Shown: in pieces, positions 4,137-51,640 of the stretch
Position numbering within the stretch: position 1 is the stretch's first letter
How the letters are laid out: each line of letters opens with the position of its first letter
Assembly (NCBI GenBank): GCA_049325295.1
Contig: JBMOMD010000043.1
Location: forward strand, 11,578 to 75,577
Direction of reading: 5' to 3'
DNA from: Nitrospirota bacterium
Lineage (GTDB): Bacteria > Nitrospirota > Nitrospiria > 2-01-FULL-66-17
Length of the DNA: 64,000 bases
Translations under genes and position numbers: made by a program
Notes under the pieces: generated by a model
The model's database searches: none
What the model saw: only the letters and a program-made list of their open reading frames with translations
What the model was told of the DNA's origin: nothing

Positions 4137-5047
4137 CCGAACCCGACGCGCCCAAGCAGGGGGCTCGGCCGGCGGGCGCGAGCGGTCCCCGCATCGTCAT
4201 CGTCAGCGGGCTGTCGGGCGCGGGCAAGAGCCACGTGCTGCACTGTTTCGAGGACGTGGGGTTCTTTTGCGTCGACAACCTGCCCCCGCCGCTCATCCCC
4301 ACGTTCGTGCATTTGTACACCCACGGCGAACCCAAGAACCACCGCATCGCGCTCGGGATCGACATCCGCGGCCGGGAATTTCTCTCGCAAAGCTTCACCG
4401 CGATCGAGCAGCTCAGGCAGGCGGGGTATCGCGTCGAGATGTTGTTCTTGGACGCGCGCGACGACGTGCTCATCCGCCGGTTCTCGGAGACCCGGCGTCC
4501 GCACCCCTTGGCGCACTCGCGGCCCGTGATCGAGGGCATCACGCAGGAACGGGAAGAGCTCCGCGAGCTCCGCGCCCGCGCCGATCTCATCATCGACACG
4601 TCCGATTATTCGGTCCACCAACTCAAGGCGTTCATCGCGCAGCGCTACGTGGAGCGCCGGCACGGTCTGGCCGTGACCGTCATCTCGTTCGGGTACAAGT
4701 TCGGCGTGCCGCGCGAAGCGGACCTGGTCTTCGACGTGCGGTTCCTCAAAAATCCCAACTTCGTGGAAACGCTCCGGCCGCTGTCGGGACAAGACCACGC
4801 GGTGGCGGACTACGTCATGGGCCAGCCCGAAACCGAGGGGTTCCTCACGCGGCTGGAAGGGTTGCTCGAATATTTGTGGCCGTTGTACGAGGCCGAGGGG
4901 CGCACCTATCTGACCATCGCGTTGGGGTGCACGGGCGGCCGGCACCGCTCGGTCGCGTTGGTGGAACGACTGGCCGCGTTGTTGGGCCAGCGCGGGCTGC
5001 AGCCGACCGTCCAACACCGGGACATCGACCGGCACATCGGGAGCTGA
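4115..5047 (+). CDS. rapZ: RNase adapter protein RapZ (P-loop ATPase, YvcJ/YhbJ family)
   Basis: P-loop GLSGAGKS. Conserved position after rpoN-hpf. The exact start is uncertain; ATG 4115 overlaps the hpf 3' end. Confidence 0.8.
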   Translation: MDRPRAVAEPDAPKQGARPAGASGPRIVIVSGLSGAGKSHVLHCFEDVGFFCVDNLPPPLIPTFVHLYTHGEPKNHRIALGIDIRGREFLSQSFTAIEQLRQAGYRVEMLFLDARDDVLIRRFSETRRPHPLAHSRPVIEGITQEREELRELRARADLIIDTSDYSVHQLKAFIAQRYVERRHGLAVTVISFGYKFGVPREADLVFDVRFLKNPNFVETLRPLSGQDHAVADYVMGQPETEGFLTRLEGLLEYLWPLYEAEGRTYLTIALGCTGGRHRSVALVERLAALLGQRGLQPTVQHRDIDRHIGS

Positions 5048-5055
5048 GGAGCGCG

Positions 5056-5676
5056 ATGGCGTCATATACCGTGGCGATCACGGGGGCGAGCGGGGCGGTG
5101 TACGGCGTGACCCTGCTCGATCGTCTGGCCCAGGCCGGGCACGACGTCGCATTGGTGGTCTCCCCGGACGGCGTGACCGTGATCAAGGAAGAGACCGGGA
5201 TCGACTGGAGCGGCGACGTGTCCCGGGTGCGCCGCGCCATCGACCGGCGTTACCACGGGCGGGTGACGTGGTGGGAGCCGGGGAACTTCTACGCGCCGAT
5301 CGCGAGCGGCTCGCACCTCGGCGACGGCATGATCATCGCGCCCTGCTCCATGAAAACCGCGGCCGCGGTGGCGCACGGGTTGTCCGCGTCGTTGATCGAA
5401 CGGGCCGCGGACGTGACCTTGAAGGAACGGCGCCCGCTGATCGTGGTGCCGCGCGAGACCCCGCTGTCCTCGATTCATCTGGAGAATCTGCTAACCTTAT
5501 CGCGGGCGGGCGCGCACGTGGTCGCGGCGATGCCCGCGTTTTATCACCGCCCCAAGTCCATCGACGACGTGGTGGCGTTCGTGGTCGGGCGGGTGCTCGA
5601 CCACCTCGGAATCGCCCACGATCTGGTGCCGCGCTGGGGCGCGGACCGCACGCAACGGAGGACACGTGAGCGCTGA
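5056..5676 (+). CDS. ubiX: Flavin prenyltransferase UbiX
   Basis: MASYTVAITGASG...IIAPCSMKT...VVPRE matches UbiX/Pad1 motifs. Start placed by arithmetic from the stop. The 548-aa ORF 4030..5676 in the track is an artefactual upstream extension. Confidence 0.85.
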   Translation: MASYTVAITGASGAVYGVTLLDRLAQAGHDVALVVSPDGVTVIKEETGIDWSGDVSRVRRAIDRRYHGRVTWWEPGNFYAPIASGSHLGDGMIIAPCSMKTAAAVAHGLSASLIERAADVTLKERRPLIVVPRETPLSSIHLENLLTLSRAGAHVVAAMPAFYHRPKSIDDVVAFVVGRVLDHLGIAHDLVPRWGADRTQRRTRER

Positions 5677-6202
5677 ACCCGCAAGACCATTGATCCCGGA
5701 GGATCACCCCGATCCCGATGCCGATACCGCGATCGACCCCGAGGTCGAGGCCGCGGTCGCGGCGGAGGCGGCCGGGGACGAAAAGCTGACGCTCGTTCAG
5801 CGGGTCACGAAGATGAACGTGGCCCAGAAGGTCAAATTCGCGTTTCGGGCCGACAAGGAAGGCCGGACCTTGCTGCTCAAGGAATCCAGCCGGCTGGTGG
5901 TGATGGCGGTGCTCAACTCGCCCAAGATCACGGAGCAGGAAATCGAGACGCTGGCCAAATCACGCAACGTGTCGGAGGAAATATTGCGCGCGATCGCGAG
6001 ACGGCGCGATTGGATGTCGAAGTATTCGATCAAGCAAGGTCTCGCGAGCAACCCCAAGACCCCGGTGTCCATCTCGATGAGTCTGCTCCCGACGCTCACC
6101 GCGCGGGACCTGAGCTTTCTCGCCAAGGACAAGGGCGTTCCCGAAGCTATTCGGAATAATGCGGTGCGGCTCGCCAAACAACGCAGCGAACGCGGCGGCT
6201 AG
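5666..6202 (+). CDS. Hypothetical helical protein
   Basis: Overlaps the ubiX 3' end by 11 nt in the same direction (co-transcribed). No recognisable family. Chosen over the antisense ORF 5797..6177 on coding direction. Confidence 0.45.
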   Translation: MSAEPARPLIPEDHPDPDADTAIDPEVEAAVAAEAAGDEKLTLVQRVTKMNVAQKVKFAFRADKEGRTLLLKESSRLVVMAVLNSPKITEQEIETLAKSRNVSEEILRAIARRRDWMSKYSIKQGLASNPKTPVSISMSLLPTLTARDLSFLAKDKGVPEAIRNNAVRLAKQRSERGG

Positions 6203-9850: not shown

Positions 9851-11944
9851 GTGATGGCGGCGAAACGCGCGTCGGAGACAACGTCGGATCTTGTCTTTGA
9901 GATCGGCACCGAAGAGCTGCCCTGGACCGTGATCCGCGGCACGATCGCGCACTTGGACGGCGCGGCGCGCGCGGCATTCGAGCGGGCTCGACTGTCATCT
10001 CAAGCAGTCCACGTGTATGGCACGCCGCGGCGGTTGGTCCTGATCGCGGAAGGCGTGGCCACGCGGCAGGCCGAGGCGACCACGCAGGTGGTGGGCCCGC
10101 CCGCGAGCGCGGCGTTTGACGCGGACGGCAAGCCCACCAAGGCGGCCGAAGGATTCGCCAAATCGCAGGGCGTGGCGGTCTCGGATCTGACCGTGGTCAC
10201 GACCGAGAAGGGGCGGTACGTGGCGGTGGTGCGGGCGGAAGCGCGACACGCGGCGTCCGCCGTTCTGAAGGACGTGCTGCCGAAGCTGATCGCCGATCTC
10301 TCGTTTCCGCGCGCCATGAAGTGGGAAACCGGCGGCGCGCGGTTCGCCCGGCCGATCCGCTGGATCGTGGCGCTTTTCGGCGGCAAACCCATTGCGATCA
10401 AATACGGAGGGGTCGCGTCGGGTCTCATGACGCGCGGCCACGCGTTGAGCGCGCCCAAGCCGTTTCGCGCGCCCGCGACGTGGGCCGCGTTGTCGCAGAC
10501 GCTGGAGCGCCGGGGCGTGATCGTGGACCACGCGCGGCGGCGCGCGGTGATCGCCGCGCAACTGGCCGCGGTCGCGCGCGAGGCGGGCGGCCGCCTGGTC
10601 GAGGACGACGATTTGTTGGAGCAAGCCGCATTCCTCACCGAATCGCCCTGCGCGATCGCGGGCGCGTTCGACCCCAAGTATCTCGCGCTGCCGCGCGAAG
10701 TGATCGTAACCGTGATGAAGGAACACCAGGGGTATTTTTCGCTGGTGGACCGTAAGGGCGAACCCTTGCCCGGGTTCATCGCGGTGAGCAACGTCAAACC
10801 CGCGGGCCGCGCCGTGGCTTCGATCCGCGCGGGGTACGAACGCGTGATCCGCGCCCGCCTCGACGACGCCAAGTTTTATTTCGACCAGGACCAGAAGGAG
10901 CGTCTGGCCGACCGCGTGGAGCGGCTCAAGGGGGTGGTGTTCCAGGAAAAACTGGGCACGGTTCACGCCAAGGTGGAACGCGTGGTCGCGTTGGCGCGCG
11001 CGTTGGCGCCGCGCTTCGAGGTGGACGCGGGCCAAGCCGAACGCGCGGCATGGTTGTGCAAGGCGGATCTGACCACCGGCATGGTGCGCGAGTTTCCGGA
11101 GTTGCAGGGCATCATGGGGCGCGAGTACGCCAAACGGCAACACGAGCCCCAGGCCGTGGCCGACGCGATCGGCGAGCACTACCGGCCGCGCTTTGCCGGG
11201 GATCGGTTGCCCGCGAATCCCTTGGCTCAACTCGTGGCCGTGGCGGACAAGGTGGACACCATCGTGCGCTGTTTCGGCGCGGGCCTGATTCCCACCGGAT
11301 CGCAGGACCCGTACGCGCTGCGGCGCCAAGCGTTGGGCGTGGCGCAGATTCTGCGCGAGCGGCCGGTGGTCACGCTCTCGGCGTTGATCGCGCACGCGGC
11401 GCAGCCGGGCACGGACCACGGCACGATTCAGGAGTTCTTCTGCCAGCGGATCGAATCGCAGGCCAAGACCGAGGGGTTCCGCGCGGATTTGATCAACGCG
11501 GTGCTGGACGTGCCGTCCGCGGCCGACGCCCCGCACCTGGCGTTCCGCCGGCTGGCCGCGTTCACCGCGTTTTCGCGGCGTCCCGCGTTCGAATCGTTGA
11601 TGACGGTCTGCAAGCGAGTGATGAACATTTTGCCCGAGCAGTGCCCCGCCGCGATCGACCCCGCGCGGTTCACGCACGACGCGGAGCGCCGCCTGCACGC
11701 GGAGACGCAACGGGCCGCGGCCGCGATTCACGCGCACGAAGCCGAAGGTCGGGATGAGGCCGTGTTGGAGACGTTCGAGTCGCTCAAGCCCGCGATCGAC
11801 GGGTTCTTCACCGACGTGATGGTGATGGCCGAGGATCACGCGGTGCGCGACACGCGGCTGGCATTGCTCAAGGCGGTGAACGATTTGCTGGCGCGGTTCG
11901 CGGATTTCCGCGCGGTGGCGACGACGGAAGCGCAGGCACGCTGA
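9851..11944 (+). CDS. glyS: Glycine--tRNA ligase beta subunit
   Basis: GlyS N-terminus (VFEIGTEELP). Directly follows glyQ. ~697 aa. Confidence 0.9.
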   Translation: MMAAKRASETTSDLVFEIGTEELPWTVIRGTIAHLDGAARAAFERARLSSQAVHVYGTPRRLVLIAEGVATRQAEATTQVVGPPASAAFDADGKPTKAAEGFAKSQGVAVSDLTVVTTEKGRYVAVVRAEARHAASAVLKDVLPKLIADLSFPRAMKWETGGARFARPIRWIVALFGGKPIAIKYGGVASGLMTRGHALSAPKPFRAPATWAALSQTLERRGVIVDHARRRAVIAAQLAAVAREAGGRLVEDDDLLEQAAFLTESPCAIAGAFDPKYLALPREVIVTVMKEHQGYFSLVDRKGEPLPGFIAVSNVKPAGRAVASIRAGYERVIRARLDDAKFYFDQDQKERLADRVERLKGVVFQEKLGTVHAKVERVVALARALAPRFEVDAGQAERAAWLCKADLTTGMVREFPELQGIMGREYAKRQHEPQAVADAIGEHYRPRFAGDRLPANPLAQLVAVADKVDTIVRCFGAGLIPTGSQDPYALRRQALGVAQILRERPVVTLSALIAHAAQPGTDHGTIQEFFCQRIESQAKTEGFRADLINAVLDVPSAADAPHLAFRRLAAFTAFSRRPAFESLMTVCKRVMNILPEQCPAAIDPARFTHDAERRLHAETQRAAAAIHAHEAEGRDEAVLETFESLKPAIDGFFTDVMVMAEDHAVRDTRLALLKAVNDLLARFADFRAVATTEAQAR

Positions 11945-12026: not shown

Positions 12027-14696
12027 ATGGCTCGATCAGCGACGCACAAGTGGGTGTATTACTTCGGGGACGGACGCGCCGAGGGCAAGGCCGGCATGAA
12101 GGACCTGCTCGGGGGCAAAGGCGCCGGCCTCGCGGAGATGACCAACCTCAAGATCCCGGTGCCGCCCGGGTTCACCATCACCACCGAGGCGTGCGTCGAG
12201 TACTTCCGGCTCAAAAAATCGTATCCCAAAGGGATGTGGGACCAGACGCTCGCGGGGCTGAAGAAGGTCGAGCGGTCCATGAAGATGGGGTTCGGCGATC
12301 CCGAGCGGCCGTTGCTCGTCTCGGTCCGGTCCGGGGCCAAGGCGTCGATGCCCGGCATGATGGACACGGTGTTGAACCTCGGTCTGAACGAGCGCACGTT
12401 GCACGGCTTGATCAAAAAGACCGGCAACCCGCGCTTCGGCTACGACGCGTACCGTCGCTTCATTACCATGTTCGGCTCCATCGTGCTGGGCGTGAAGCGC
12501 GAGAAGTTCGAGCGTCTGTTGGAAGACGCCAAGGCCGAGCGCGGGGTGCATCATGACACCGAGCTGGACGAACACGCCTTGCGCCAGGTGGTCCGCGATT
12601 TCCAAAACTTGGTCAAGGCCGAGACCGGCCGGCCGTTTCCGGAAGATCCCATGGAGCAACTCACGCTCGCGATCAAAGCCGTGTTTGATTCGTGGTACGG
12701 CGCGCGCGCGGTCACCTATCGCAAGTTGAACAACATCCCGGAGTCGTGGGGCACGGCCGTGAACGTGGTGGCCATGGTGTTCGGGAACATGGGCGAGACC
12801 AGCGGCACGGGCGTGGCGTTCACGCGCGACCCCTCCACCGGCGAGCGGCGCTTCTTCGGGGAGTGTCTGCTCAACGCGCAGGGCGAAGACGTGGTCGCGG
12901 GCATCCGCACCCCGCTGCCGGTGGAGTCGCTCAAGGACACGATTCCCGCGGCGTATCGCGAGTTGCAGCGCGTGTACAAGTCGCTGGAGAAACACTACCA
13001 CGACATGCTCGACCTGGAGTTCACGATCCAGGAGGGCACGTTGTACATGCTCCAAACCCGCGTGGGCAAACGCACCGCCGCGGCCGCGATCCGCATCGCC
13101 ACCGAGATGGCCAAGGAAAAGCTCATTGACCGCGACACCGCGATCCTGCGCGTGGACCCGGAGCAACTCGACCAGCTCCTGCACCCCACCATCGACCCCT
13201 CTGCCAAGTTGCAGGTCGTGGCCAAGGGCTTACCCGCGTCACCTGGCGCGGCGGGCGGGAAAGTGGTGTTCACGGCCGAAGACGCGGAGCGGTCCGCGGC
13301 CAAGGGCGAAAAAGTGATCTTGGTGCGCGCGGAAACCTCGCCCGAGGACATCGGCGGCATGAACGCGGCCGAGGGCATTCTCACCGCGCGGGGCGGCATG
13401 ACTTCGCACGCCGCGGTGGTGGCGCGCGGCATGGGCAAGTGCTGCGTGGCCGGGTGCAGCGCGGTGAACATCGACGAACACAGCGACTCGTTCTCGGTCA
13501 ACGGCTACGTGGTGCGCCGCGGCGACTGGATCACGCTCAACGGCTCGACCGGCGAAGTCATCCTGGGCGAAGCCCCGCTGATCCGGCCCAAGCTGAGTAA
13601 GGACTTCGAGATCCTCATGGGCTGGGTGGACCAGACCCGGCGCCTGCGCGTGCGCGCCAACGCGGACACGCCCCACGACGCCCGGGTGGCGCGGGGATTC
13701 GGCGCCGAGGGCATCGGCCTGTGCCGGACCGAACACATGTTCTTCGAGGGCGACCGCATCCGCGCGGTGCGCGAAATGATCCTGGCCGACGATCTGGCCG
13801 GGCGGCAACGCGCGCTCGCCAAGTTGCTGCCCATGCAAAAGAGCGACTTTCTCGGCATCTTCAAGGAAATGGCCGGCCTGCCGGTCACCATCCGCCTGCT
13901 CGACCCGCCGCTGCACGAGTTCCTGCCCCAGACCGAGGCGGAACTCGCCTCGCTGGCCACGGACATGCACGTGTCGGTCGATGATCTGCGCGCCAAGAAC
14001 AAGAGCCTGCACGAATTCAACCCTATGCTGGGATGGCGGGGGTGCCGGTTGGGCATCACCTTCCCCGAGATTTACGAAATGCAGGTGCGCGCGATCTTCG
14101 AAGCCGCCTGCGAATTGGCCGGCCAGAAAGTTAAAGTGATTCCCGAAGTTATGATCCCCTTGGTCGCGCACGTGAAGGAATTGGCGCGCATGAAGGAATT
14201 GCTCATTCGCGTGGCCGAGGAAACCATGTCCCGCTACGGCAAGAAAGTGGCCTACACCATCGGCACCATGATCGAACTGCCGCGCGCCGCGCTCGTGGCG
14301 GACGAAATCGCCAAGGAAGCCGAGTTCTTCTCCTTCGGCACCAACGACCTCACCCAAACCACCTTCGGCCTCTCCCGCGACGACGCGGGCAAGTTCCTCC
14401 CGTTCTACGTCGAACAAGGCATCCTGCCCCGCGACCCCTTCGTGGCCATCGACCAGGACGGCGTGGGCGCCCTCATGCGCATGGGCGCAGAAAAAGGCCG
14501 CTCCGTGCGTCCCAAGTTGAAAGTCGGCATCTGCGGCGAACACGGCGGGGAGCCATCCTCCGTGGAGTTCTGCCACCGCATCGGCTTCGACTACGTGAGC
14601 TGCTCACCGTACCGCGTGCCGATCGCAAGACTTGCCGCAGCACAGGCGGCGCTGAAAGACAGCAAGAAGAAACGGGCGGTGTCGGATACGCGATAG
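12027..14696 (+). CDS. ppdK: Pyruvate, phosphate dikinase
   Basis: PEP-utilizing enzyme motifs ([22 protein letters not shown]). 889 aa. RBS GGAAGGGAG. Confidence 0.92.
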
Positions 14697-14716: not shown

Positions 14717-14742
14717 AAGACTTCTCATCCGGAGTGGGTGGA

Positions 14743-16080
14743 ATGCTGTCACGGCAGCAGAGTCCACAATCCTCGGGCACGACCTCCTCGCCAAAGCGCG
14801 GCGAGACTCCGAAGTCTCCTGCCTCCACGATCGAGATCAGCCAAGGGCAATCCGGGCGGCTCATCGTGCGCGTGCCGTACACCGCGGAGCGCGTGGCCAA
14901 GATCAAATCTATCACCGGCCGCCAGTGGCATCCGCAGGAAAAGTACTGGTCGGTGCCGCAGTCACCCCAAGCCGTCAACCGTCTGGTGGCTCTCTTTGGC
15001 GGAGAGCGTGTTTCGCTCCTCCCGCCGCTCGACGCGCCACCAATCCAGGATGCCCAGGGGCCGCCCGCGCCACCGGCCTCTCGTCAATCGACGGGAACGA
15101 CCGCCGGGCTTCTCGACGATGTGCGTCGTACGATCCGCAGCCGGCACTACAGCCGACGGACCGAAGAAGCCTATCTGGGCTGGATTCGGCGGTTCCTGCG
15201 GTTTCATGACCAACGTGATCCCGCACAGATGGCTGCCCCGGAGGTATCGCGCTTTCTCAGCACGCTGGCAATCGAGCGCGACGTGTCCGCCTCCACGCAA
15301 AACCAGGCCTTGGCCGCCATCCTCTTCCTGTACAAGGACGTGCTCGACCGCGACCCCGGATGGGTGGAAGGCGTGGTGCGCGCCAAGCGTCCGCAGCGCC
15401 TTCCGGTCGTGCTCTCCAGGCAGGAGGTCCAAGGCCTCTTGTCGGCGCTGCAAGGCGTGCCGTGGATCGCGGGGACCCTGCTCTACGGCGCGGGACTTCG
15501 TCTCATGGAGTGTCTGCGCCTGCGCGTCAAGGACGTGGACTTTGCCCGAGGAGAGATCGTGGTGCGCGAAGGGAAGGGCGGCAAGGACCGGGTCACCATG
15601 CTGCCGTCGGCCGCGGCGCCCAAACTCCGCGCACACCTGGACCGGGTCCGCAAACAGCACACGGCTGACCTGGCCGCAGGCTTCGGCCGGGTCTGGCTGC
15701 CAAACGCCCTAGCCCGCAAGTACCCCAACGCGGACCGCGAGTGGGGGTGGCAGTGGATCTTTCCGGCATCGACCATCTCAGTGGACCCACATAGCGGGGA
15801 GCGACGACGGCACCACCTGCACGAGTCCGTTCCGCAGCGTGCCATCCGCGAGGCCCGGCTCCGTGCTGGGATCACGAGACCCGTCGGTCCTCACACGTTG
15901 CGGCACTGCTTCGCCACGCATCTCCTGGAGTCCGGCCACGACATCCGCACCGTCCAGGAACTTCTCGGCCACAGCGACGTAAGAACCACCATGATCTACA
16001 CCCACGTCCTCAACCGCGGCGGCCTCGGCGTCCAAAGCCCGGCCGACCGGATTCTTGGAGGAGGCAGCGATGAGCGTTAG
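14743..16080 (+). CDS. intI: Integron integrase IntI (tyrosine recombinase with the IntI-specific additional domain) carrying a ~120 aa N-terminal extension
   Basis: [42 protein letters not shown]... matches the IntI-specific insertion. The C-terminal [39 protein letters not shown] is near-identical in pattern to IntI1, as recalled from memory. ATG at 14743 after RBS GGAGTGGGTGGA. Confidence 0.85.
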
Positions 16081-16250
16081 GACGCAGAATTTGTCGTATA
16101 ACATCACTTAACCATCGCTTAATGGAAATCGAGAAAACTGTTGGATTGTTTAATTAATCTGTGGAATAATTCACCATCGTCCTGATCTTGTTAGGACGCA
16201 GTTCTTGCCGTAGTTGCTGAATTCATTAGGACGTCTAATTTTAGTTGGGC
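16076..16250 (+). other. attI-like region. Direct repeats GTTAGGACGCAG (16076-16087, 16190-16201), ATTAGGACGTCT (16225-16236), and core GTTGGGC (16244-16250) at the cassette junction. AT-rich, with a candidate Pc promoter TTGGAT-N17-GAATAAT (16141-16170).
   Basis: GTTRRRY-type integrase-binding half-sites are repeated downstream of the intI stop. Crossover G|TT lies at 16244/16245, where the cassette-1 ORF region begins. Confidence 0.5.
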
Positions 16251-16256
16251 GCCAAT

Positions 16257-17258
16257 ATGACTGAGCGCATCGCTATTGCCGGTGTCTCCGAGCGAGACGT
16301 AGATCTTCTATTGTTGGAGGAGTTTCAGTCTTCCAGCGACTTTCAAGGCTGGTTTGTACGAGAAGCGTTCGGCCCCGACGTTGACTTTGGGCAGTGCACT
16401 GGAGCAAGACGATCAATCACGAACTCTACGGGCGAATCGGATCTCGAGATCTTCTTTGCGAACTCCAAAGGTGAGAAGACCCGGCTCTTGATAGAGAACA
16501 AGGTAAACGCCGGTTTTCAACCACTTCAGGCTGAGCGGTACAAGGAGCGAGGGCTGGGCTACGTTTCTACAGCCCAATGCAACTCCTTTCGAACGGTACT
16601 CATAGCTCCAGCTCGCTACTTCGGTGAATCGGCTTCCCGCAAGGGTTTCGATGGGCGCGTTTCGTATGAGCAGATTCTTCGTTGGTTCGGAGAAGCGGTG
16701 CAACTCGGCGAGAGGCGTCAATACAAAGTCGCATTACTAAGGTCGGCCATTGACAAGGGCACGCTCGGGTACCAACCAGAAGAAGACAAGCCGACAACAG
16801 CGTTTTGGAAGGCGTACTGGCGCTTCGCGCTCGATCGGGCTCCCGAGCTTGAAATGCCGGAGCCCAGTGCAAAACCATCCCGCTCCAGCTTTGTCCATTT
16901 CAGGCCCCGTACTCTGCCGCGCTCGGTAGACATCGTCCACAAGTTCGCATTCGGTCACGTTGATCTGCATTTGCGCGGCATGGGCAAACGTCTTAACGAG
17001 GTGCGCGTTGCCGTGCGACCTTATCTGGCTCCTGCCATGACTGTCGCGGCGGCAGCGAAATCAGCGGCGATACGTATCGAAGTCCCGAAACTACGCGTCA
17101 CGGCGCCATTTGAGGCGCAAACACCAGAGGCAGAACTTGCCCTCGATGCAGCAAAGCGGTTGCACGTATGGTTTATCGACAGCAACGATTTCGCTACGTG
17201 GTTGGTTGGCGCCCAACAATCGGTTGCAGGCGACGCGCCGCGAGCGGCACGTGCCTGA
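16257..17258 (+). CDS. Cassette-encoded PD-(D/E)xK nuclease-superfamily protein of unknown function
   Basis: ~52% GC against a ~67% background. Motif GESDLEIFF...LLIENK (D...ExK) with upstream E/D residues. No RBS, which is common for cassettes. Bounded by GTTGGGC cores. Confidence 0.6.
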   Translation: MTERIAIAGVSERDVDLLLLEEFQSSSDFQGWFVREAFGPDVDFGQCTGARRSITNSTGESDLEIFFANSKGEKTRLLIENKVNAGFQPLQAERYKERGLGYVSTAQCNSFRTVLIAPARYFGESASRKGFDGRVSYEQILRWFGEAVQLGERRQYKVALLRSAIDKGTLGYQPEEDKPTTAFWKAYWRFALDRAPELEMPEPSAKPSRSSFVHFRPRTLPRSVDIVHKFAFGHVDLHLRGMGKRLNEVRVAVRPYLAPAMTVAAAAKSAAIRIEVPKLRVTAPFEAQTPEAELALDAAKRLHVWFIDSNDFATWLVGAQQSVAGDAPRAARA

Positions 17259-17273
17259 ACCGAAGCGTTGGGC
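17211..17273 (+). other. attC recombination site of cassette 1 (63 bp)
   Basis: GCCCAACAATCGGTTGCAGGCGACGCGCCGCGAGCGGCACGTGCCTGAACCGAAGCGTTGGGC. R''=GCCCAAC and R'=GTTGGGC, with imperfectly complementary L arms and bulged bases. Strongly resembles aadA-type attC, recalled from memory. Confidence 0.65.
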
Positions 17274-17290
17274 GCCATAACAGAAGAACC

Positions 17291-17644
17291 ATGAACGTTC
17301 GCATTGCGACAACCGATTCCGAGATTGCCATCTGCTATCCAGTAATGCGGGAGCTTCGTCCGCACATCGCGGAAGAGCGATTTCTCTCCCGGATCCGGAG
17401 TCAAGAAGGTGCAGGCTATCGGCTCGCCTATGTGCAAGAACCAAATGGCGTAGTTGCGGTTGCTGGATTCCGAGTCGGTGAGAATCTGGCTTGGGGGCGT
17501 TTTCTGTACGTCGATGATCTTGTAACCCTTCCCGCACACCGATCAAAGGGCTATGGTGCCAAGTTGCTTTCGTGGCTCAAAGAACAAGCCGCAAAGGAAG
17601 GTTGTGAGTGCTTGGTCCGGGGTCGGACCCGCGCAATGTGTTGA
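17291..17644 (+). pseudogene. GNAT family N-acetyltransferase, 3'-truncated by insertion of the RAYT/IS element
   Basis: GNAT motif A (HRSKGYGAKLL) is present. The protein ends 9 aa after GCECL, with the beta5-beta7 region missing. The sequence diverges exactly where the element's inverted repeat begins (17614). ~53% GC. Confidence 0.55.
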
Positions 17645-18551
17645 AAAGTCATCCGCCTTTGGGCACAATGAGGCCGCTGGAGGTCTTGGATCGCACGTTG
17701 TAGAGCCAAAACTACGCTGCAGGGAGGAAGCGTCATGCCGCGCGCCCATCGCTATTTTCTTCCCCATCACATCTGGCACATCACGCACCGGTGTCATCAA
17801 CGGGCGTTTCTCCTGAAGTTCGCGCGTGACCGCCGGCGCTGGCGGCAGTGGCTGTTTGAGGCCACGAAGCGGTTTCGGCTGTGTGTGCTCAATTACGTCG
17901 TCACGTCCAACCATATTCATCTCTTGGTCCGGGATCAGGGGCGAGGCGAGATCGCGCGCGCGATGCAGCTCATCGCGGGACGCACGGCCCAGGAATACAA
18001 TCAACGCAAAGGGCGACAGGGAGCGTTCTGGGAGGATCGGTATCATGCCACGGCGGTCGACACGGAGAGCTACCTGGCCCGCTGTCTGGTCTACATTGAT
18101 CTGAACATGGTGCGGGCGGGCGCCGTGGCGCACCCGCGTGACTGGGACGCGGGCGGCTATCACGAGCTGCATGCGCCACCCACGCGGTACGCGATCATCG
18201 ATCAGCCGGCGCTCACCGAGTTGCTCGGCCTGAAGAGTCTCCAGCAACTACAGGAGACTCACGCGCTGTGGATCGAGGAGGCGATCCGGGCGGGAGGTGG
18301 ACCACGCGATCCGATGTGGACCGAGAGCGTGGCGGTCGGCCGCGCCGAGTTCGTGCGAGATGTCCAGGTCGAGCTGGGGAGCAAGGCGCGATATCGGGAG
18401 GTCGTGGCCGAAGGACAGGCGCACGTGCTGCGCGAACCGCCGACCCTCTACGGGGCATTTTGACGGGCAAAAGGCCGCGCGAAGGGCTCAACCGTCCGCC
18501 GTGGCGGACCAAAACCTCGAGACATCAATCGATTGCGCTGGTCCGACCCCG
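17614..18551 (+). mobile_element. RAYT / IS200-IS605-like element bounded by 12-bp inverted repeats CGGGGTCGGACC (17618-17629) and GGTCCGACCCCG (18540-18551)
   Basis: Left end GGTCCGGGGTCGGACC is itself a hairpin. A second GTCCGCC-gt-GGCGGAC hairpin sits at 18494-18509. Inserted inside cassette 2. Confidence 0.5.
17735..18463 (+). CDS. Y1 HUH transposase, REP-associated tyrosine transposase (RAYT / IS200-like TnpA), 242 aa
   Basis: HUH motif SNHIHLLV and the catalytic-Y helix VYIDLNMVRAGAV (YIxxNPVRAGLV-like). N-terminus HIWHITHRCHQRAFLL matches the Transposase_17 family. Confidence 0.75.
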   Translation: MPRAHRYFLPHHIWHITHRCHQRAFLLKFARDRRRWRQWLFEATKRFRLCVLNYVVTSNHIHLLVRDQGRGEIARAMQLIAGRTAQEYNQRKGRQGAFWEDRYHATAVDTESYLARCLVYIDLNMVRAGAVAHPRDWDAGGYHELHAPPTRYAIIDQPALTELLGLKSLQQLQETHALWIEEAIRAGGGPRDPMWTESVAVGRAEFVRDVQVELGSKARYREVVAEGQAHVLREPPTLYGAF

Positions 18552-50446: not shown

Positions 50447-51640
50447 TCACCTGGTAGGACCGCTCGCCGTGACTTTCCCTGAAATCGGGTCATACGACCA
50501 CGGTTTCCCCCAAGGATCTTTGAGCGGCCACATCGATGCGCCGTACTCCGCCAACGGATCAAATACGGAGATGGGAGCCCGGCCGTGTTCAACGCTCCAG
50601 ACGTCCACCAGATCCCCCAACCCCTTGATGTGGTGACCGAGCATCATGACCCGCAGCGCGCGGACCTCCGCGTGGACCCCTTCGACGATCGCGGACCTCA
50701 TGCCCCACAGCGCCCACGTCGGAACCGCGATCAACGACGTCAGCAACGCCAAGTTTGCGATCCATCCCAACGCCACGGCGGCATGTCGCAACAACTCGGA
50801 GGGCACGCGTTCGGCGGCCACCACGGCGGACGGAGCCGGCGCATTCAGGGGAACAATGAGGCCGGCGCTTAGGAGGTTCGCCAACGCCTTACACACCTCG
50901 AATTCGCCGATCTGAAGCAATTCGATCAGTCGGGACACATCGTGCGAGCCGTTCAACGCGTGATAGACGGCGATCTCGTTCGCGGAGAATCGTCCTTCGG
51001 GCTCGTCCTGGCCGAGATCGGCGAATGGATCCGCCTCCGCCTCGTTGACCGCCGCCGCAACCGGAGTTTCCGGTTGGACAGCCTGTTCAATTTCTCCCCG
51101 TTTTTCCGGCACCTGGGCGAAGATGACTTTCAGCGAGGGGATCTTCTTCTCGATCGGCGGCCATTCATCGAGCCGCCGAACCCCCTCCATCAAGATGTGT
51201 TCGGTGCTGATCGGGTCAATATACTGTTTCGGGTACTGCACGTCGCGCTGTTCGAACGAGTAGCGTCCGTCCTTCCAGCGGAACAAGCGGTAGACCGTTT
51301 CCAAAATCTGAAGCCGCAACGCTTTTTTAAGGTCCGCTTCGCTGACGGCGTTCTGGGAAACAAGAATCTGTCCGAGATAGTCTCCGGTGTCCTGCTGCGT
51401 CTTCAGCGCCTTCTCGAGTTGTGGCGGAGAGATCCGCTTGGCGCGAACCAGCACTTCGCCGATGCGTTCGATCCCCTCGGCGTTGTCCATCTGCGCCGAT
51501 ACCACCATCCCCTTCACGAAACCGACGCTGGCTCGTCGCGCCCCGTCGAGAACGGACATCACGCCGCTCTTCTGTTGGACGTAGATGAGCTGGAAAATGT
51601 CCGACAGCCCGAAATCTTTAATGGCGCCTTCGAGCGACAT
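50447..51640 (-). CDS. DUF4388 domain plus GspE-N/MshEN-like domain protein with a C-terminal TM segment (candidate c-di-GMP binding)
   Basis: N-terminal LSDIFQLI...KSG pattern (DUF4388). Two repeats of the LGxxLVxxxxISxxQLxxAL MshEN-like motif. Confidence 0.6.
   Translation of the reverse strand: MSLEGAIKDFGLSDIFQLIYVQQKSGVMSVLDGARRASVGFVKGMVVSAQMDNAEGIERIGEVLVRAKRISPPQLEKALKTQQDTGDYLGQILVSQNAVSEADLKKALRLQILETVYRLFRWKDGRYSFEQRDVQYPKQYIDPISTEHILMEGVRRLDEWPPIEKKIPSLKVIFAQVPEKRGEIEQAVQPETPVAAAVNEAEADPFADLGQDEPEGRFSANEIAVYHALNGSHDVSRLIELLQIGEFEVCKALANLLSAGLIVPLNAPAPSAVVAAERVPSELLRHAAVALGWIANLALLTSLIAVPTWALWGMRSAIVEGVHAEVRALRVMMLGHHIKGLGDLVDVWSVEHGRAPISVFDPLAEYGASMWPLKDPWGKPWSYDPISGKVTASGPTR

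What the first reader, a model, noticed from the sequence alone, without database searches (positions are those of the whole stretch)
16076..16250. attI-like region with repeated GTTAGGACGCAG sites downstream of intI, and a candidate cassette promoter
There are three GTTRRRY-type sites: GTTAGGA at 16076 and 16190, and ATTAGGA at 16225. The GTTGGGC crossover core lies at 16244, exactly where the first cassette starts. This is the expected architecture of an attI with direct-repeat IntI binding sites. A TTGGAT-N17-GAATAAT element at 16141-16170 could serve as the cassette promoter Pc. Here Pc would lie outside intI, unlike class 1 integrons.
Basis: partly seen in the sequence, partly recalled or inferred. 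Interest (0 to 1): 0.5.

Follow-up and report, generated by a model that had tools for sequence, protein, structure and literature searches.

The report
Integron attachment site downstream of integrase
This 175-base stretch is the docking site (attI) where a chromosomal integron of a Nitrospirota bacterium inserts captured gene cassettes. It is a conserved but previously undescribed version of a known kind of site, and the proposed cassette promoter in it remains unproven.

Summary
TTAGGACG occurs three times in 64 kb, all on the + strand at 16077, 16191 and 16226, and GTTGGGC sits at 16244.

The attI reading is strongly supported:
- intI (14734-16080) is a bona fide integron integrase, transcribed towards the cassettes. 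This is a "reverse" integron.
- Cassette 1 (16245-17267) ends in a 63-nt attC whose R' box is the same GTTGGGC.
- In 11 related lineages (IntI 69-83% identical) the region from the intI stop to ...TAGTT is conserved. Identity falls to random level straight after GTT.
- Two contigs are 100% identical over intI plus attI and diverge exactly there.
- The three boxes are islands of conservation at fixed distances from the crossover (167-169, 54 and 19 nt).
- The last box abuts an L box, giving the 7-5-7 L/spacer/R geometry of attI1.

IntI binding to the boxes is inferred, not shown.

The promoter is weak evidence. The tool scan does not call it, and 29% of shuffles score as well. Its TGnAATnnT element is seen in only five lineages. 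Read-through from intI is an equally good source of cassette transcription.

Verdict: a new member of a known kind.

In passing: this IntI clade carries an N-terminal HARP-like domain that I did not find described.

The parts
14734..16080 (+). intI, integron integrase (448-aa ORF from GTG; the likely start is ATG 14743). It is transcribed towards attI and the cassettes, so this is the reverse orientation. Residues ~31-98 (nt ~14824-15027) form an extra N-terminal HARP-like domain.
   Evidence: TIGR02249 integron integrase, 474.5 bits against a cut-off of 265, full-length match. Pfam SAM_4 and Phage_integrase. The N-domain is conserved in the homologues.
16076..16102 (+). Site A, the distal accessory site. 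The GTTAGGACGCAG box plus an inverted ...TATAAC arm make a 27-nt imperfect dyad that overlaps the intI stop codon TAG (16078-16080).
   Evidence: Mean pairwise identity 0.76 across 11 lineages, against 0.37-0.40 for the flanking spacers. It lies 167-169 nt from the R box in every lineage. The outer GTTA/TAAC pairs are invariant. In L165/L166 the site is a perfect palindrome.
16141..16170 (+). AT-rich block with a promoter-like element: TGGATT/TTGGAT, a 17-18 nt spacer, then TG-n-AATAAT (extended -10 at 16162-16170). This is the candidate Pc; a TSS would fall near 16177.
   Evidence: Score 9 in my scan (3/6 + 5/6 + TG), but 587 of 2000 shuffles do as well. The tool scan does not call it. TGnAAT(A/T)(A/C)T is readable in the A1 rows of window, L161, L001, L163 and L166, though the scan ranked it best only for window, L161 and L001. 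It is absent from the L167 subclade. A near-consensus promoter sits at the analogous place in L089/L013.
16190..16217 (+). Site B, the second accessory site: GTTAGGACGCAG-TTC-TTGCCGTAGTTGC.
   Evidence: Mean identity 0.70. Its start lies exactly 54 nt from the R box in all 11 lineages.
16225..16239 (+). Site C dyad, ATTAGGAC/GTCTAAT. It combines the third direct box (16225-16231) with the L box CGTCTAA (16232-16238), which is inverted relative to the R box.
   Evidence: This is the most conserved block (identity 0.92). The dyad is 97.6% paired, with an A:T to C:G swap at one pair. It lies 19 nt from the R box in all lineages.
16239..16243 (+). 5-nt spacer (TTTTA) between the L and R boxes.
   Evidence: It is TTTTA, TTATA or TTGTA in all relatives. 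L(7)-spacer(5)-R(7) has the same geometry as attI1, CCCTAAA-ACAAA-GTTRRRY. The attI1 L-box sequence is from PMC4792948; the full string is from my own knowledge.
16244..16250 (+). R box GTTGGGC. The crossover lies between G16244 and T16245, which is the boundary between the integron platform and cassette 1.
   Evidence: Conservation ends right after GTT: identity is 0.91 before and 0.28 after. L161 and L162 are identical for 1490 nt and differ from the first base after GTT. The same GTTGGGCGCCA is present at the attC R' box at 17267.
16245..17267 (+). Cassette 1 (1023 bp). Its ORF (16257-17258) encodes a PD-(D/E)XK-family protein.
   Evidence: Pfam PDDEXK_4, E 3.9e-5. The cassette is bounded by the attI R box and the attC.
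17211..17273 (+). attC of cassette 1, 63 nt: R'' GCCCAAC ... R' GTTGGGC.
   Evidence: The terminal boxes are complementary at 7/7, and the sequence folds as a hairpin of -40.5/-45.7 kcal/mol (inverted repeat I3). A very similar attC occurs in relative L170 at 5637-5693.
17268..17644 (+). Cassette 2. A GNAT acetyltransferase ORF (17291-17644) that looks truncated at its 3' end. No attC follows it.
   Evidence: Pfam Acetyltransf_1 matches profile positions 20-96 of 116 only. No further attC-like inverted repeat was found up to 27.9 kb.

Best explanation
The region 16076-16250 is the attI recombination site of a sedentary chromosomal integron of reverse type (intI, then attI, then cassettes, all on one strand) in a Nitrospirota genome.

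Incoming circular cassettes recombine through their folded attC with the R box GTTGGGC. Strand exchange occurs between G16244 and T16245.

The R box is paired with an inverted L box (CGTCTAA, 16232-16238) across a 5-bp spacer. This forms the core ('simple') site that would be bound by two IntI monomers.

Three GTTAGGA-type boxes lie in direct orientation to the R box, starting 19, 54 and 168 nt upstream of it. They most likely act as accessory IntI-binding sites, like DR1 and DR2 of attI1, and help to assemble or orient the synaptic complex.

The AT-rich block between the distal and proximal boxes may carry a cassette promoter with an extended -10, or it may serve an architectural role.

Shown here: the identity of intI, the crossover position, the cassette and attC boundaries, and the conservation and fixed spacing of the boxes. 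Inferred: IntI binding to the boxes, their accessory role, and promoter activity.
For: - intI is a full-length TIGR02249 integron integrase.
- The attC at 17211-17273 shares GTTGGGC(GCCA) with the 16244 junction.
- Alignment A1 covers 12 loci from 11 lineages. It is conserved from the intI stop to ...AATT(T/A)TAGTT and at random level afterwards.
- L161 and L162 are 100% identical over 1490 nt of intI plus attI. They then differ at 6 of the next 14 positions, beginning right after GTT. This means different first cassettes at one and the same attI.
- Relatives carry arrays of attC sites downstream of intI on the same strand.
- Sites A, B and C+L show identities of 0.76, 0.70 and 0.92, against 0.37-0.40 for the spacers. 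Their spacing is invariant at 167-169, 54 and 19 nt.
- The same 168 / 55-57 / 19 layout is seen in Nitrospinota loci L089 and L013, whose IntI is only about 66% identical.
- TTAGGACG is found three times in 64 kb, all of them here.
- Precedent: attI1 has L and R boxes plus two upstream direct repeats (PMC4792948). Reverse integrons and attIs immediately downstream of intI have been described (PMC6557892, PMC3607928, PMC9668308).
Against: - There is no biochemical evidence that IntI binds any box.
- GTTAGGA breaks the Y at position 7 of GTTRRRY.
- Site A's dyad is degenerate in the window and does not fold there, so its exact recognition mode is unclear.
- The L161/L162 divergence can be followed for only 14 nt, because L161 ends there.
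- For the promoter: the -35 is poor, the tool scan does not call it, it is not better than 29% of shuffles, and it is absent from the L167-L172 subclade.
- The integron holds only one complete cassette, and the array is truncated, so current activity in this genome is not shown.
Confidence: 0.8

Rival explanations
1. The AT-rich block (16141-16170) is not a promoter. Cassettes would be transcribed by read-through from intI and the upstream PPDK gene, which are on the same strand. The block would instead be an architectural element (intrinsic bend or IHF-like site) that lets distal site A loop onto the proximal sites. A second promoter-like match inside the conserved C/L/R core (TTGCCG-17-AATTAT/TATAGT in relatives) could also do the job.
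For: - intI and the cassettes are co-directional, with only about 175 nt and no terminator-like site called between them.
- PPDK ends about 37 nt before the intI ORF.
- The window promoter score is matched by 29% of shuffles.
- The block is not conserved in the L167-L172 subclade, which keeps sites A, B and C.
- The A-to-B distance is fixed while the sequence between them drifts, as expected for a spacer that has to loop.
Against: - TGnAAT(A/T)(A/C)T is kept in five lineages while the neighbouring bases vary.
- More distant reverse integrons have good sigma-70 matches at the same relative position. L089/L013 have TTGATA-17-TAGAAT+TG, matched by 0 of 2000 shuffles. L083 has TTGACT-17-GACAAT.
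- The match to the IHF consensus is only partial, judged by eye and not scored.
Confidence: 0.4
2. The conserved boxes are not IntI sites. They would bind another host or integron-encoded factor, or act at the RNA level. For example, site A could be a 3'-end hairpin that stabilises or terminates the intI mRNA.
For: - Site A straddles the intI stop codon.
- It is a perfect 12-bp-stem palindrome in L165/L166 (-16.3 kcal/mol, z = -10).
- Some compensatory changes occur in the dyad.
Against: - In the window, site A does not fold as the dyad.
- Only the outer GTTA/TAAC positions are invariant, while the inner pairs are mostly unpaired. That points to sequence-level rather than structure-level conservation.
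- The boxes resemble the R box and the R'/R'' boxes of the clade's own attC sites (GTTAGGC/GCCTAAC).
- No T-tract follows site A.
- Rfam finds nothing.
Confidence: 0.12
3. The true crossover is at one of the GTTAGGA boxes (for example 16190). The segment or segments up to 16244 would then be fixed ORF-less cassettes, for instance a promoter cassette whose attC runs from the right arm of site A to box B.
For: - The A-right arm and box B are complementary 7-mers in L166 (GCCTAAC...GTTAGGC), about 100 nt apart, which is an attC-like length.
- In the window, an inverted CGTCCTGA lies just upstream of box B.
Against: - The segment shows no attC-like hairpin. Fold z-scores lie between -2.6 and +1.1 across the 11 lineages, and only L161 and L166 reach about -2.
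- The inverted CGTCCTGA is not conserved in any relative.
- The whole 175 nt travels with intI in every lineage, while everything after 16246 varies.
Confidence: 0.03

Closest known systems
attI1 of class 1 integrons (L/R core site plus direct repeats DR1 and DR2)
   Same: - The R box is a GTT-core where the cassette joins.
- An inverted L box lies 5 bp upstream (7-5-7 geometry).
- Further R-box-like boxes lie in direct orientation upstream, presumably as extra integrase-binding sites.
- It sits next to its cognate intI.
   Different: - It lies after the 3' end of intI instead of upstream of its 5' end.
- It spans about 175 bp rather than about 65 bp.
- It has three accessory boxes, at -19, -54 and -168, and the first abuts the L box.
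- Each box is part of a dyad.
- The distal box overlaps the intI stop codon.
- There is no sequence similarity beyond GTT.
- Binding has not been tested.
Reverse ('unusual', inverted-integrase) integrons, e.g. Treponema denticola (Coleman 2004; PMC3607928, PMC6557892), and the putative archaeal attIs immediately downstream of intI (PMC9668308)
   Same: - intI is transcribed towards attI and the cassettes.
- attI lies between the intI 3' end and the first cassette.
- Pc is necessarily outside intI.
   Different: - In the Treponema paper read here (PMC3607928), only an R-box match was proposed for attI, and attI was otherwise set aside as poorly conserved.
- Here a full conserved architecture with fixed spacing is defined across Nitrospirota, Nitrospinota and related lineages.
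- The integrase also carries an extra N-terminal HARP-like domain.
Vibrio cholerae superintegron attIA and Pc
   Same: It is a sedentary chromosomal integron whose cassette mRNA is reported to start 65 bp upstream of attI (PMC3948777 abstract).
   Different: - It has the divergent orientation.
- Its Pc was mapped experimentally, whereas here it is only a weak consensus match.

Membership tests
Integron attI site | Lies next to a gene for a genuine integron integrase (IntI-specific extra domain) | tested here: met
   TIGR02249, 474.5 bits against a cut-off of 265, covering positions 1-315 of 315. The [20 protein letters not shown] patch is present.
Integron attI site | Ends in a GTT-core R box (GTTRRRY) at the junction with the first cassette, matching the attC R' boxes | tested here: met
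   GTTGGGC at 16244-16250. An identical GTTGGGCGCCA is at the attC R' box at 17267.
Integron attI site | Marks the boundary between the conserved platform and the variable cassettes in related integrons | tested here: met
   Identity is 0.91 up to GTT and 0.28 afterwards across 11 lineages. L161 and L162 are identical for 1490 nt, then diverge.
Integron attI site | The first cassette is closed downstream by a folded attC site | tested here: met
   63-nt attC at 17211-17273, with 7/7 complementary terminal boxes and a strong hairpin.
Integron attI site | An inverted L box partners the R box (core site) | tested here: met
   CGTCTAA (CGTCGAA in relatives) lies 5 nt upstream of the R box. It is in the most conserved block, at 0.92 identity.
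Integron attI site | IntI binds the L, R and accessory boxes and catalyses attI x attC recombination there | not testable with these tools
   The evidence is indirect only: different first cassettes at an identical attI, and array differences between L172 and L173.
Reverse (inverted-integrase) integron | intI is on the same strand as the cassette ORFs and the attC top strands, with attI downstream of the intI 3' end | tested here: met
   intI, the cassette ORFs and the attC (R'' then R') are all on the + strand. The same holds in the relatives.
Cassette promoter Pc (sigma-70 type) | -35 and -10 hexamers close to consensus, correctly spaced and facing the cassettes | tested here: inconclusive
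   3/6 + 5/6 + TG, facing the cassettes. The tool scan does not call it, and 29% of shuffles do as well.
Cassette promoter Pc (sigma-70 type) | Conserved in related integrons | tested here: inconclusive
   An extended -10 is readable in the A1 rows of 5 of 11 lineages and is absent from the L167 subclade. The scan ranks it best in only three of them. Analogous strong promoters occur in L089/L013 and L083.
Cassette promoter Pc (sigma-70 type) | A mapped transcription start | not testable with these tools
   No transcript data are available.
HARP domain (PF07443), for the N-terminal domain of IntI | Sequence match to the HARP family | tested here: inconclusive
   - Pfam HARP gives E 0.0017 and 18.3 bits, below the cut-off of 25.
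- phmmer links the domain (E 2.8e-11) to SNF2 helicase P0221, whose own HARP match passes the cut-off. Identity to both of that protein's HARP repeats is 35-38%.
- The top PDB sequence hit is SMARCAL1 HARP 4o66, E 0.099.
HARP domain (PF07443), for the N-terminal domain of IntI | HARP/SRD fold | tested here: met

The most novel reading that the evidence does not exclude
This clade of reverse integrons may use a mechanistically extended recombination system. Its integrase carries an N-terminal HARP domain, a type of structure-specific DNA-binding module that recognises fork and ss/ds-junction DNA in annealing helicases. It acts on a long, dyad-rich attI whose boxes sit at fixed spacing. The HARP domain could target the integrase to folded attC hairpins, or to the replication forks needed to resolve the atypical Holliday junction. 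That coupling of integron recombination to DNA structure is not described for IntI1 or VchIntIA.
Probability: 0.3. Interest if true: 0.7.

Novelty: new member of a known kind. Interest (0 to 1): 0.4.

Why it matters
attI sequences are known for only a few integron classes. [quoted passage not shown]

This report gives a precisely delimited attI family for environmental reverse integrons (Nitrospirota, Nitrospinota and relatives). It includes:
- a mapped crossover;
- a core site;
- three accessory boxes at invariant spacing.

That provides a searchable signature for annotating first cassettes. It also gives a concrete substrate for biochemical work on non-clinical integrases. The HARP-like domain on the same integrases adds a testable lead on how these enzymes find structured DNA.

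Tried and rejected
1. Core site at box B. I considered the inverted CGTCCTGA (16178-16185) plus box B as an L/R core at 16190. The inverted arm is absent from every relative.
2. A-right arm to box B as an attC or ORF-less cassette. There is no hairpin potential: z lies between -2.6 and +1.1, and only L161 and L166 reach about -2.
3. Site A as a conserved hairpin. It is strong in L166 and moderate in L167 but absent in the window. Only the outer four pairs are invariant.
4. Known RNA families. There were no Rfam hits at E <= 1 in 15800-17800.
5. The tool promoter scan did not report the proposed Pc. The only + strand call lies upstream of the IS200-like transposase gene, at 17641-17669.
6. An 11-codon ORF in attI (16122-16157), reminiscent of ORF-11 of attI1, is not conserved in the relatives.
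7. My simple attC regex gave false positives inside coding regions, for example 11225-11338 in the window and the PPDK genes of L161, L163 and L166. I therefore did not use it for a quantitative orientation census.
8. Sequences of the archaeal attIs (PMC9668308, fig. S2) are held only as images, so I could not compare them.
9. The idea that the HARP domain binds boxes A and B is weakened. L089 and L013 keep the same box layout, yet their IntI gave no hit to the N-domain profile.

Full report
**What is in the sequence**

- GTTAGGACGCAG lies at 16076-16087 and again, exactly, at 16190-16201.
- ATTAGGACG lies at 16225, and GTTGGGC at 16244-16250.
- TTGGAT lies at 16141-16146 and GAATAAT at 16164-16170.

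The shared 8-mer TTAGGACG occurs three times in the 64-kb window. All three copies are on the + strand within 157 nt, against 0.70 expected for the whole window. The A and B copies are alike over 23 nt.

Two refinements are needed. GTTAGGA is not a strict GTTRRRY match, because its last base is A. Each box is also the left half of an imperfect dyad.

**Context**

- The ORF at 14734-16080 on the + strand is a full-length integron integrase. It scores 474.5 bits on TIGR02249 against a cut-off of 265 and has the SAM_4 and Phage_integrase domains.
- Its stop codon TAG (16078-16080) lies inside the first box.
- The gene is 100% identical to an NCBI protein from a Nitrospirota MAG (P0002).
- A 63-nt attC site lies at 17211-17273 (GCCCAAC...GTTGGGC). 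Its terminal boxes are complementary at 7/7 and it forms a strong hairpin.
- Cassette 1 is therefore 16245-17267. It carries a PD-(D/E)XK-family ORF.
- The junctions at 16244 and 17267 share GTTGGGCGCCA.
- intI, the cassette ORFs and the attC top strand are all on the + strand. This is a 'reverse' or 'unusual' integron of the kind first described in Treponema denticola (PMC6557892, PMC3607928).

**Comparative test**

I fetched loci that encode relatives of the integrase. Eleven distinct lineages have IntI 69-83% identical to the window's. All are of the reverse type, and several lie downstream of a pyruvate phosphate dikinase (PPDK) gene, as in the window. They carry a homologous region after intI (alignment A1; nhmmer).

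Mean pairwise identity along the region:

| Block | Identity |
|---|---|
| Site A | 0.76 |
| Spacers between sites | 0.37-0.40 |
| AT-rich block | 0.56 |
| Site B | 0.70 |
| Site C with the L box | 0.92 |
| Spacer plus GTT | 0.91 |
| 40 nt after GTT | 0.28 |

The distances from the starts of boxes A, B and C to the R box are 167-169, 54 and 19 nt in every lineage.

Two contigs from different samples, L161 and L162, encode the identical integrase. They are 100% identical for 1490 nt, through intI and attI. They then differ at 6 of the next 14 positions, beginning at the first base after GTT. L161 ends there, so the comparison is short.

The relatives carry arrays of attC sites downstream of intI. 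One of these attCs is very like the window's. L172 and L173 share their first cassettes and then diverge.

These results fix the crossover at G16244|T16245. They show that the whole 175-nt region belongs to the integron platform.

**Anatomy**

- Immediately upstream of the R box is a 5-nt spacer (TTTTA). Upstream of that is CGTCTAA (CGTCGAA in most relatives), which is inverted relative to the R box.
- This gives the same 7-5-7 L/spacer/R arrangement as attI1. The attI1 L box is CCCTAAA (PMC4792948).
- Box C (ATTAGGA) abuts the L box. Together they form a dyad that is 97.6% 'paired' across lineages, with one A:T to C:G swap.
- Site A is GTTAGG-N-CTAAC/ATAAC. It is a perfect 12+3+12 palindrome in L165/L166 (-16.3 kcal/mol) but degenerate in the window, where it does not fold.
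- What is conserved at site A is therefore sequence at the outer positions rather than a hairpin.
- The same distal / promoter-like / proximal layout, with distances of 168, 55-57 and 19 nt, occurs in the Nitrospinota loci L089 and L013 (IntI about 66% identical).
- Looser versions of the layout occur in L019, L083, L081 and L084.

**Mechanism**

The best-supported reading has three parts:
- a core L/R site where IntI exchanges strands with a folded attC;
- three upstream R-box-like accessory boxes in direct orientation, analogous to the two direct repeats of attI1;
- a fixed-length, sequence-variable spacer between the distal and proximal boxes.

Binding and function of the boxes are inferred. 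They were not tested here.

**Promoter**

- With -10 = AATAAT (16165-16170), a TG at -15/-14 and a 3/6 -35, the element scores 9 in my scan. However, 29% of shuffles of this 37%-GC segment do as well.
- The tool's own scan does not report it.
- TGnAAT(A/T)(A/C)T can be read in the A1 rows of the five closest lineages and is absent from the L167-L172 subclade. My scan ranked it best in only three of the five.
- L089 and L013 have a near-consensus TTGATA-17-TAGAAT+TG at the equivalent place, matched by 0 of 2000 shuffles. L083 has TTGACT-17-GACAAT.
- A promoter in this position is therefore plausible, but it is unproven for the window.
- Read-through from intI and PPDK, which are on the same strand, is an equally good source of cassette transcripts.

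**Rejected alternatives**

- A crossover at box B, or an ORF-less cassette between A and B, is rejected. The segment has no attC-like fold, the inverted arm next to B is not conserved, and the segment always travels with intI.
- No known RNA family matches the region.

**Comparison with what is known**

- Reverse integrons are known. Putative attIs immediately downstream of intI have been noted in archaea (PMC9668308).
- attI1 has accessory direct repeats.
- attI is said to be unknown for most integrons (PMC4889954).
- This is therefore a new, well-delimited member of a known kind of site, not a new kind of element.

**Seen in passing: an N-terminal HARP-like domain on the integrase**

The integrase and many homologues (about 400-480 aa) have a conserved N-terminal domain of about 65 aa, followed by a variable linker. 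The NCBI annotation of 319 aa omits it.

The evidence that the domain is HARP-like:
- It gives a sub-threshold Pfam HARP match (E 0.0017).
- It is modelled confidently (pLDDT 84.7).
- Its top PDB sequence hit is SMARCAL1 HARP.
- An exhaustive phmmer search found 904 cluster representatives.
- These include an SNF2 helicase whose own HARP domains pass Pfam's threshold and are 35-38% identical to the IntI domain.
- They also include tyrosine recombinases with three or four tandem copies of the domain.

A literature search found no paper that links integron integrases with HARP.

L089 and L013 keep the box layout, although their IntI gave no hit to the N-domain profile. The boxes are therefore probably read by the recombinase core, and the HARP-like domain would have another role.

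Noticed in passing
window 14824-15027 (IntI residues ~31-98): The integron integrase has a conserved N-terminal HARP-like domain of about 65 aa ahead of a variable linker. Evidence:
- Pfam HARP, E 0.0017, below the cut-off.
- 35-38% identity to both HARP repeats of a bacterial SNF2 helicase (P0221).
- 904 cluster representatives carry the domain.

No paper linking it to integron integrases was found.
   Followed up: partly
proteins P0143, P0171, P0229, P0168, P0175, P0212: Other tyrosine recombinases (SAM_4 + Phage_integrase, 583-789 aa) carry three or four tandem copies of the same HARP-like domain at their N-termini. The fusion is therefore broader than integron integrases.
   Followed up: partly
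window 14734-15120: The public annotation of this gene (P0002, 319 aa) starts after the N-terminal domain. Homologues show that the longer ORF is real; the likely start is ATG 14743, as in P0001.
   Followed up: partly
window 17291-17644 and 17614-18463: The second cassette (GNAT acetyltransferase) is cut short: Pfam matches profile positions 20-96 of 116 and no attC follows. Next come a palindrome, GGTCCGGGGTCGGACC (17614-17629), a promoter-like site at 17641-17669, and an IS200-like Y1 transposase gene (17735-18463). The cassette array seems to have been truncated by an insertion or rearrangement.
   Followed up: partly
window 12027-14696; loci L161, L165, L166: A pyruvate phosphate dikinase gene lies immediately upstream of intI, on the same strand, in the window and in its closest relatives. 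This points to a vertically inherited, sedentary chromosomal integron at a fixed locus. The gap between the PPDK stop and the intI ORF is only about 37 nt.
   Followed up: partly
window 16122-16157: An 11-codon ORF (MEIEKTVGLFN) lies inside attI, reminiscent of ORF-11 of attI1. It is not conserved in the relatives and is probably chance.
   Followed up: yes
L089 about 5040-5070, L013 (equivalent position), L083 (between intI stop and attI core): More distant reverse integrons have near-consensus sigma-70 promoters between the distal and proximal attI boxes, facing the cassettes. L089/L013 have TTGATA-17-TAGAAT with TG, and L083 has TTGACT-17-GACAAT.
   Followed up: partly
L172 vs L173 (offset about 3161 from the intI start); L170 5637-5693: Contigs with the identical integrase share their first three cassettes and then diverge, which indicates cassette turnover within a population. 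An attC in L170 is nearly the same type as the window's attC, suggesting a shared cassette pool.
   Followed up: no
window 11225-11338 and 50951-51079: These are attC-like RYYYAAC...GTTRRRY inverted-repeat matches far from the integron. The first lies upstream of intI, and an analogous match fell inside the PPDK genes of L161, L163 and L166. They are probably false positives of the simple pattern.
   Followed up: no
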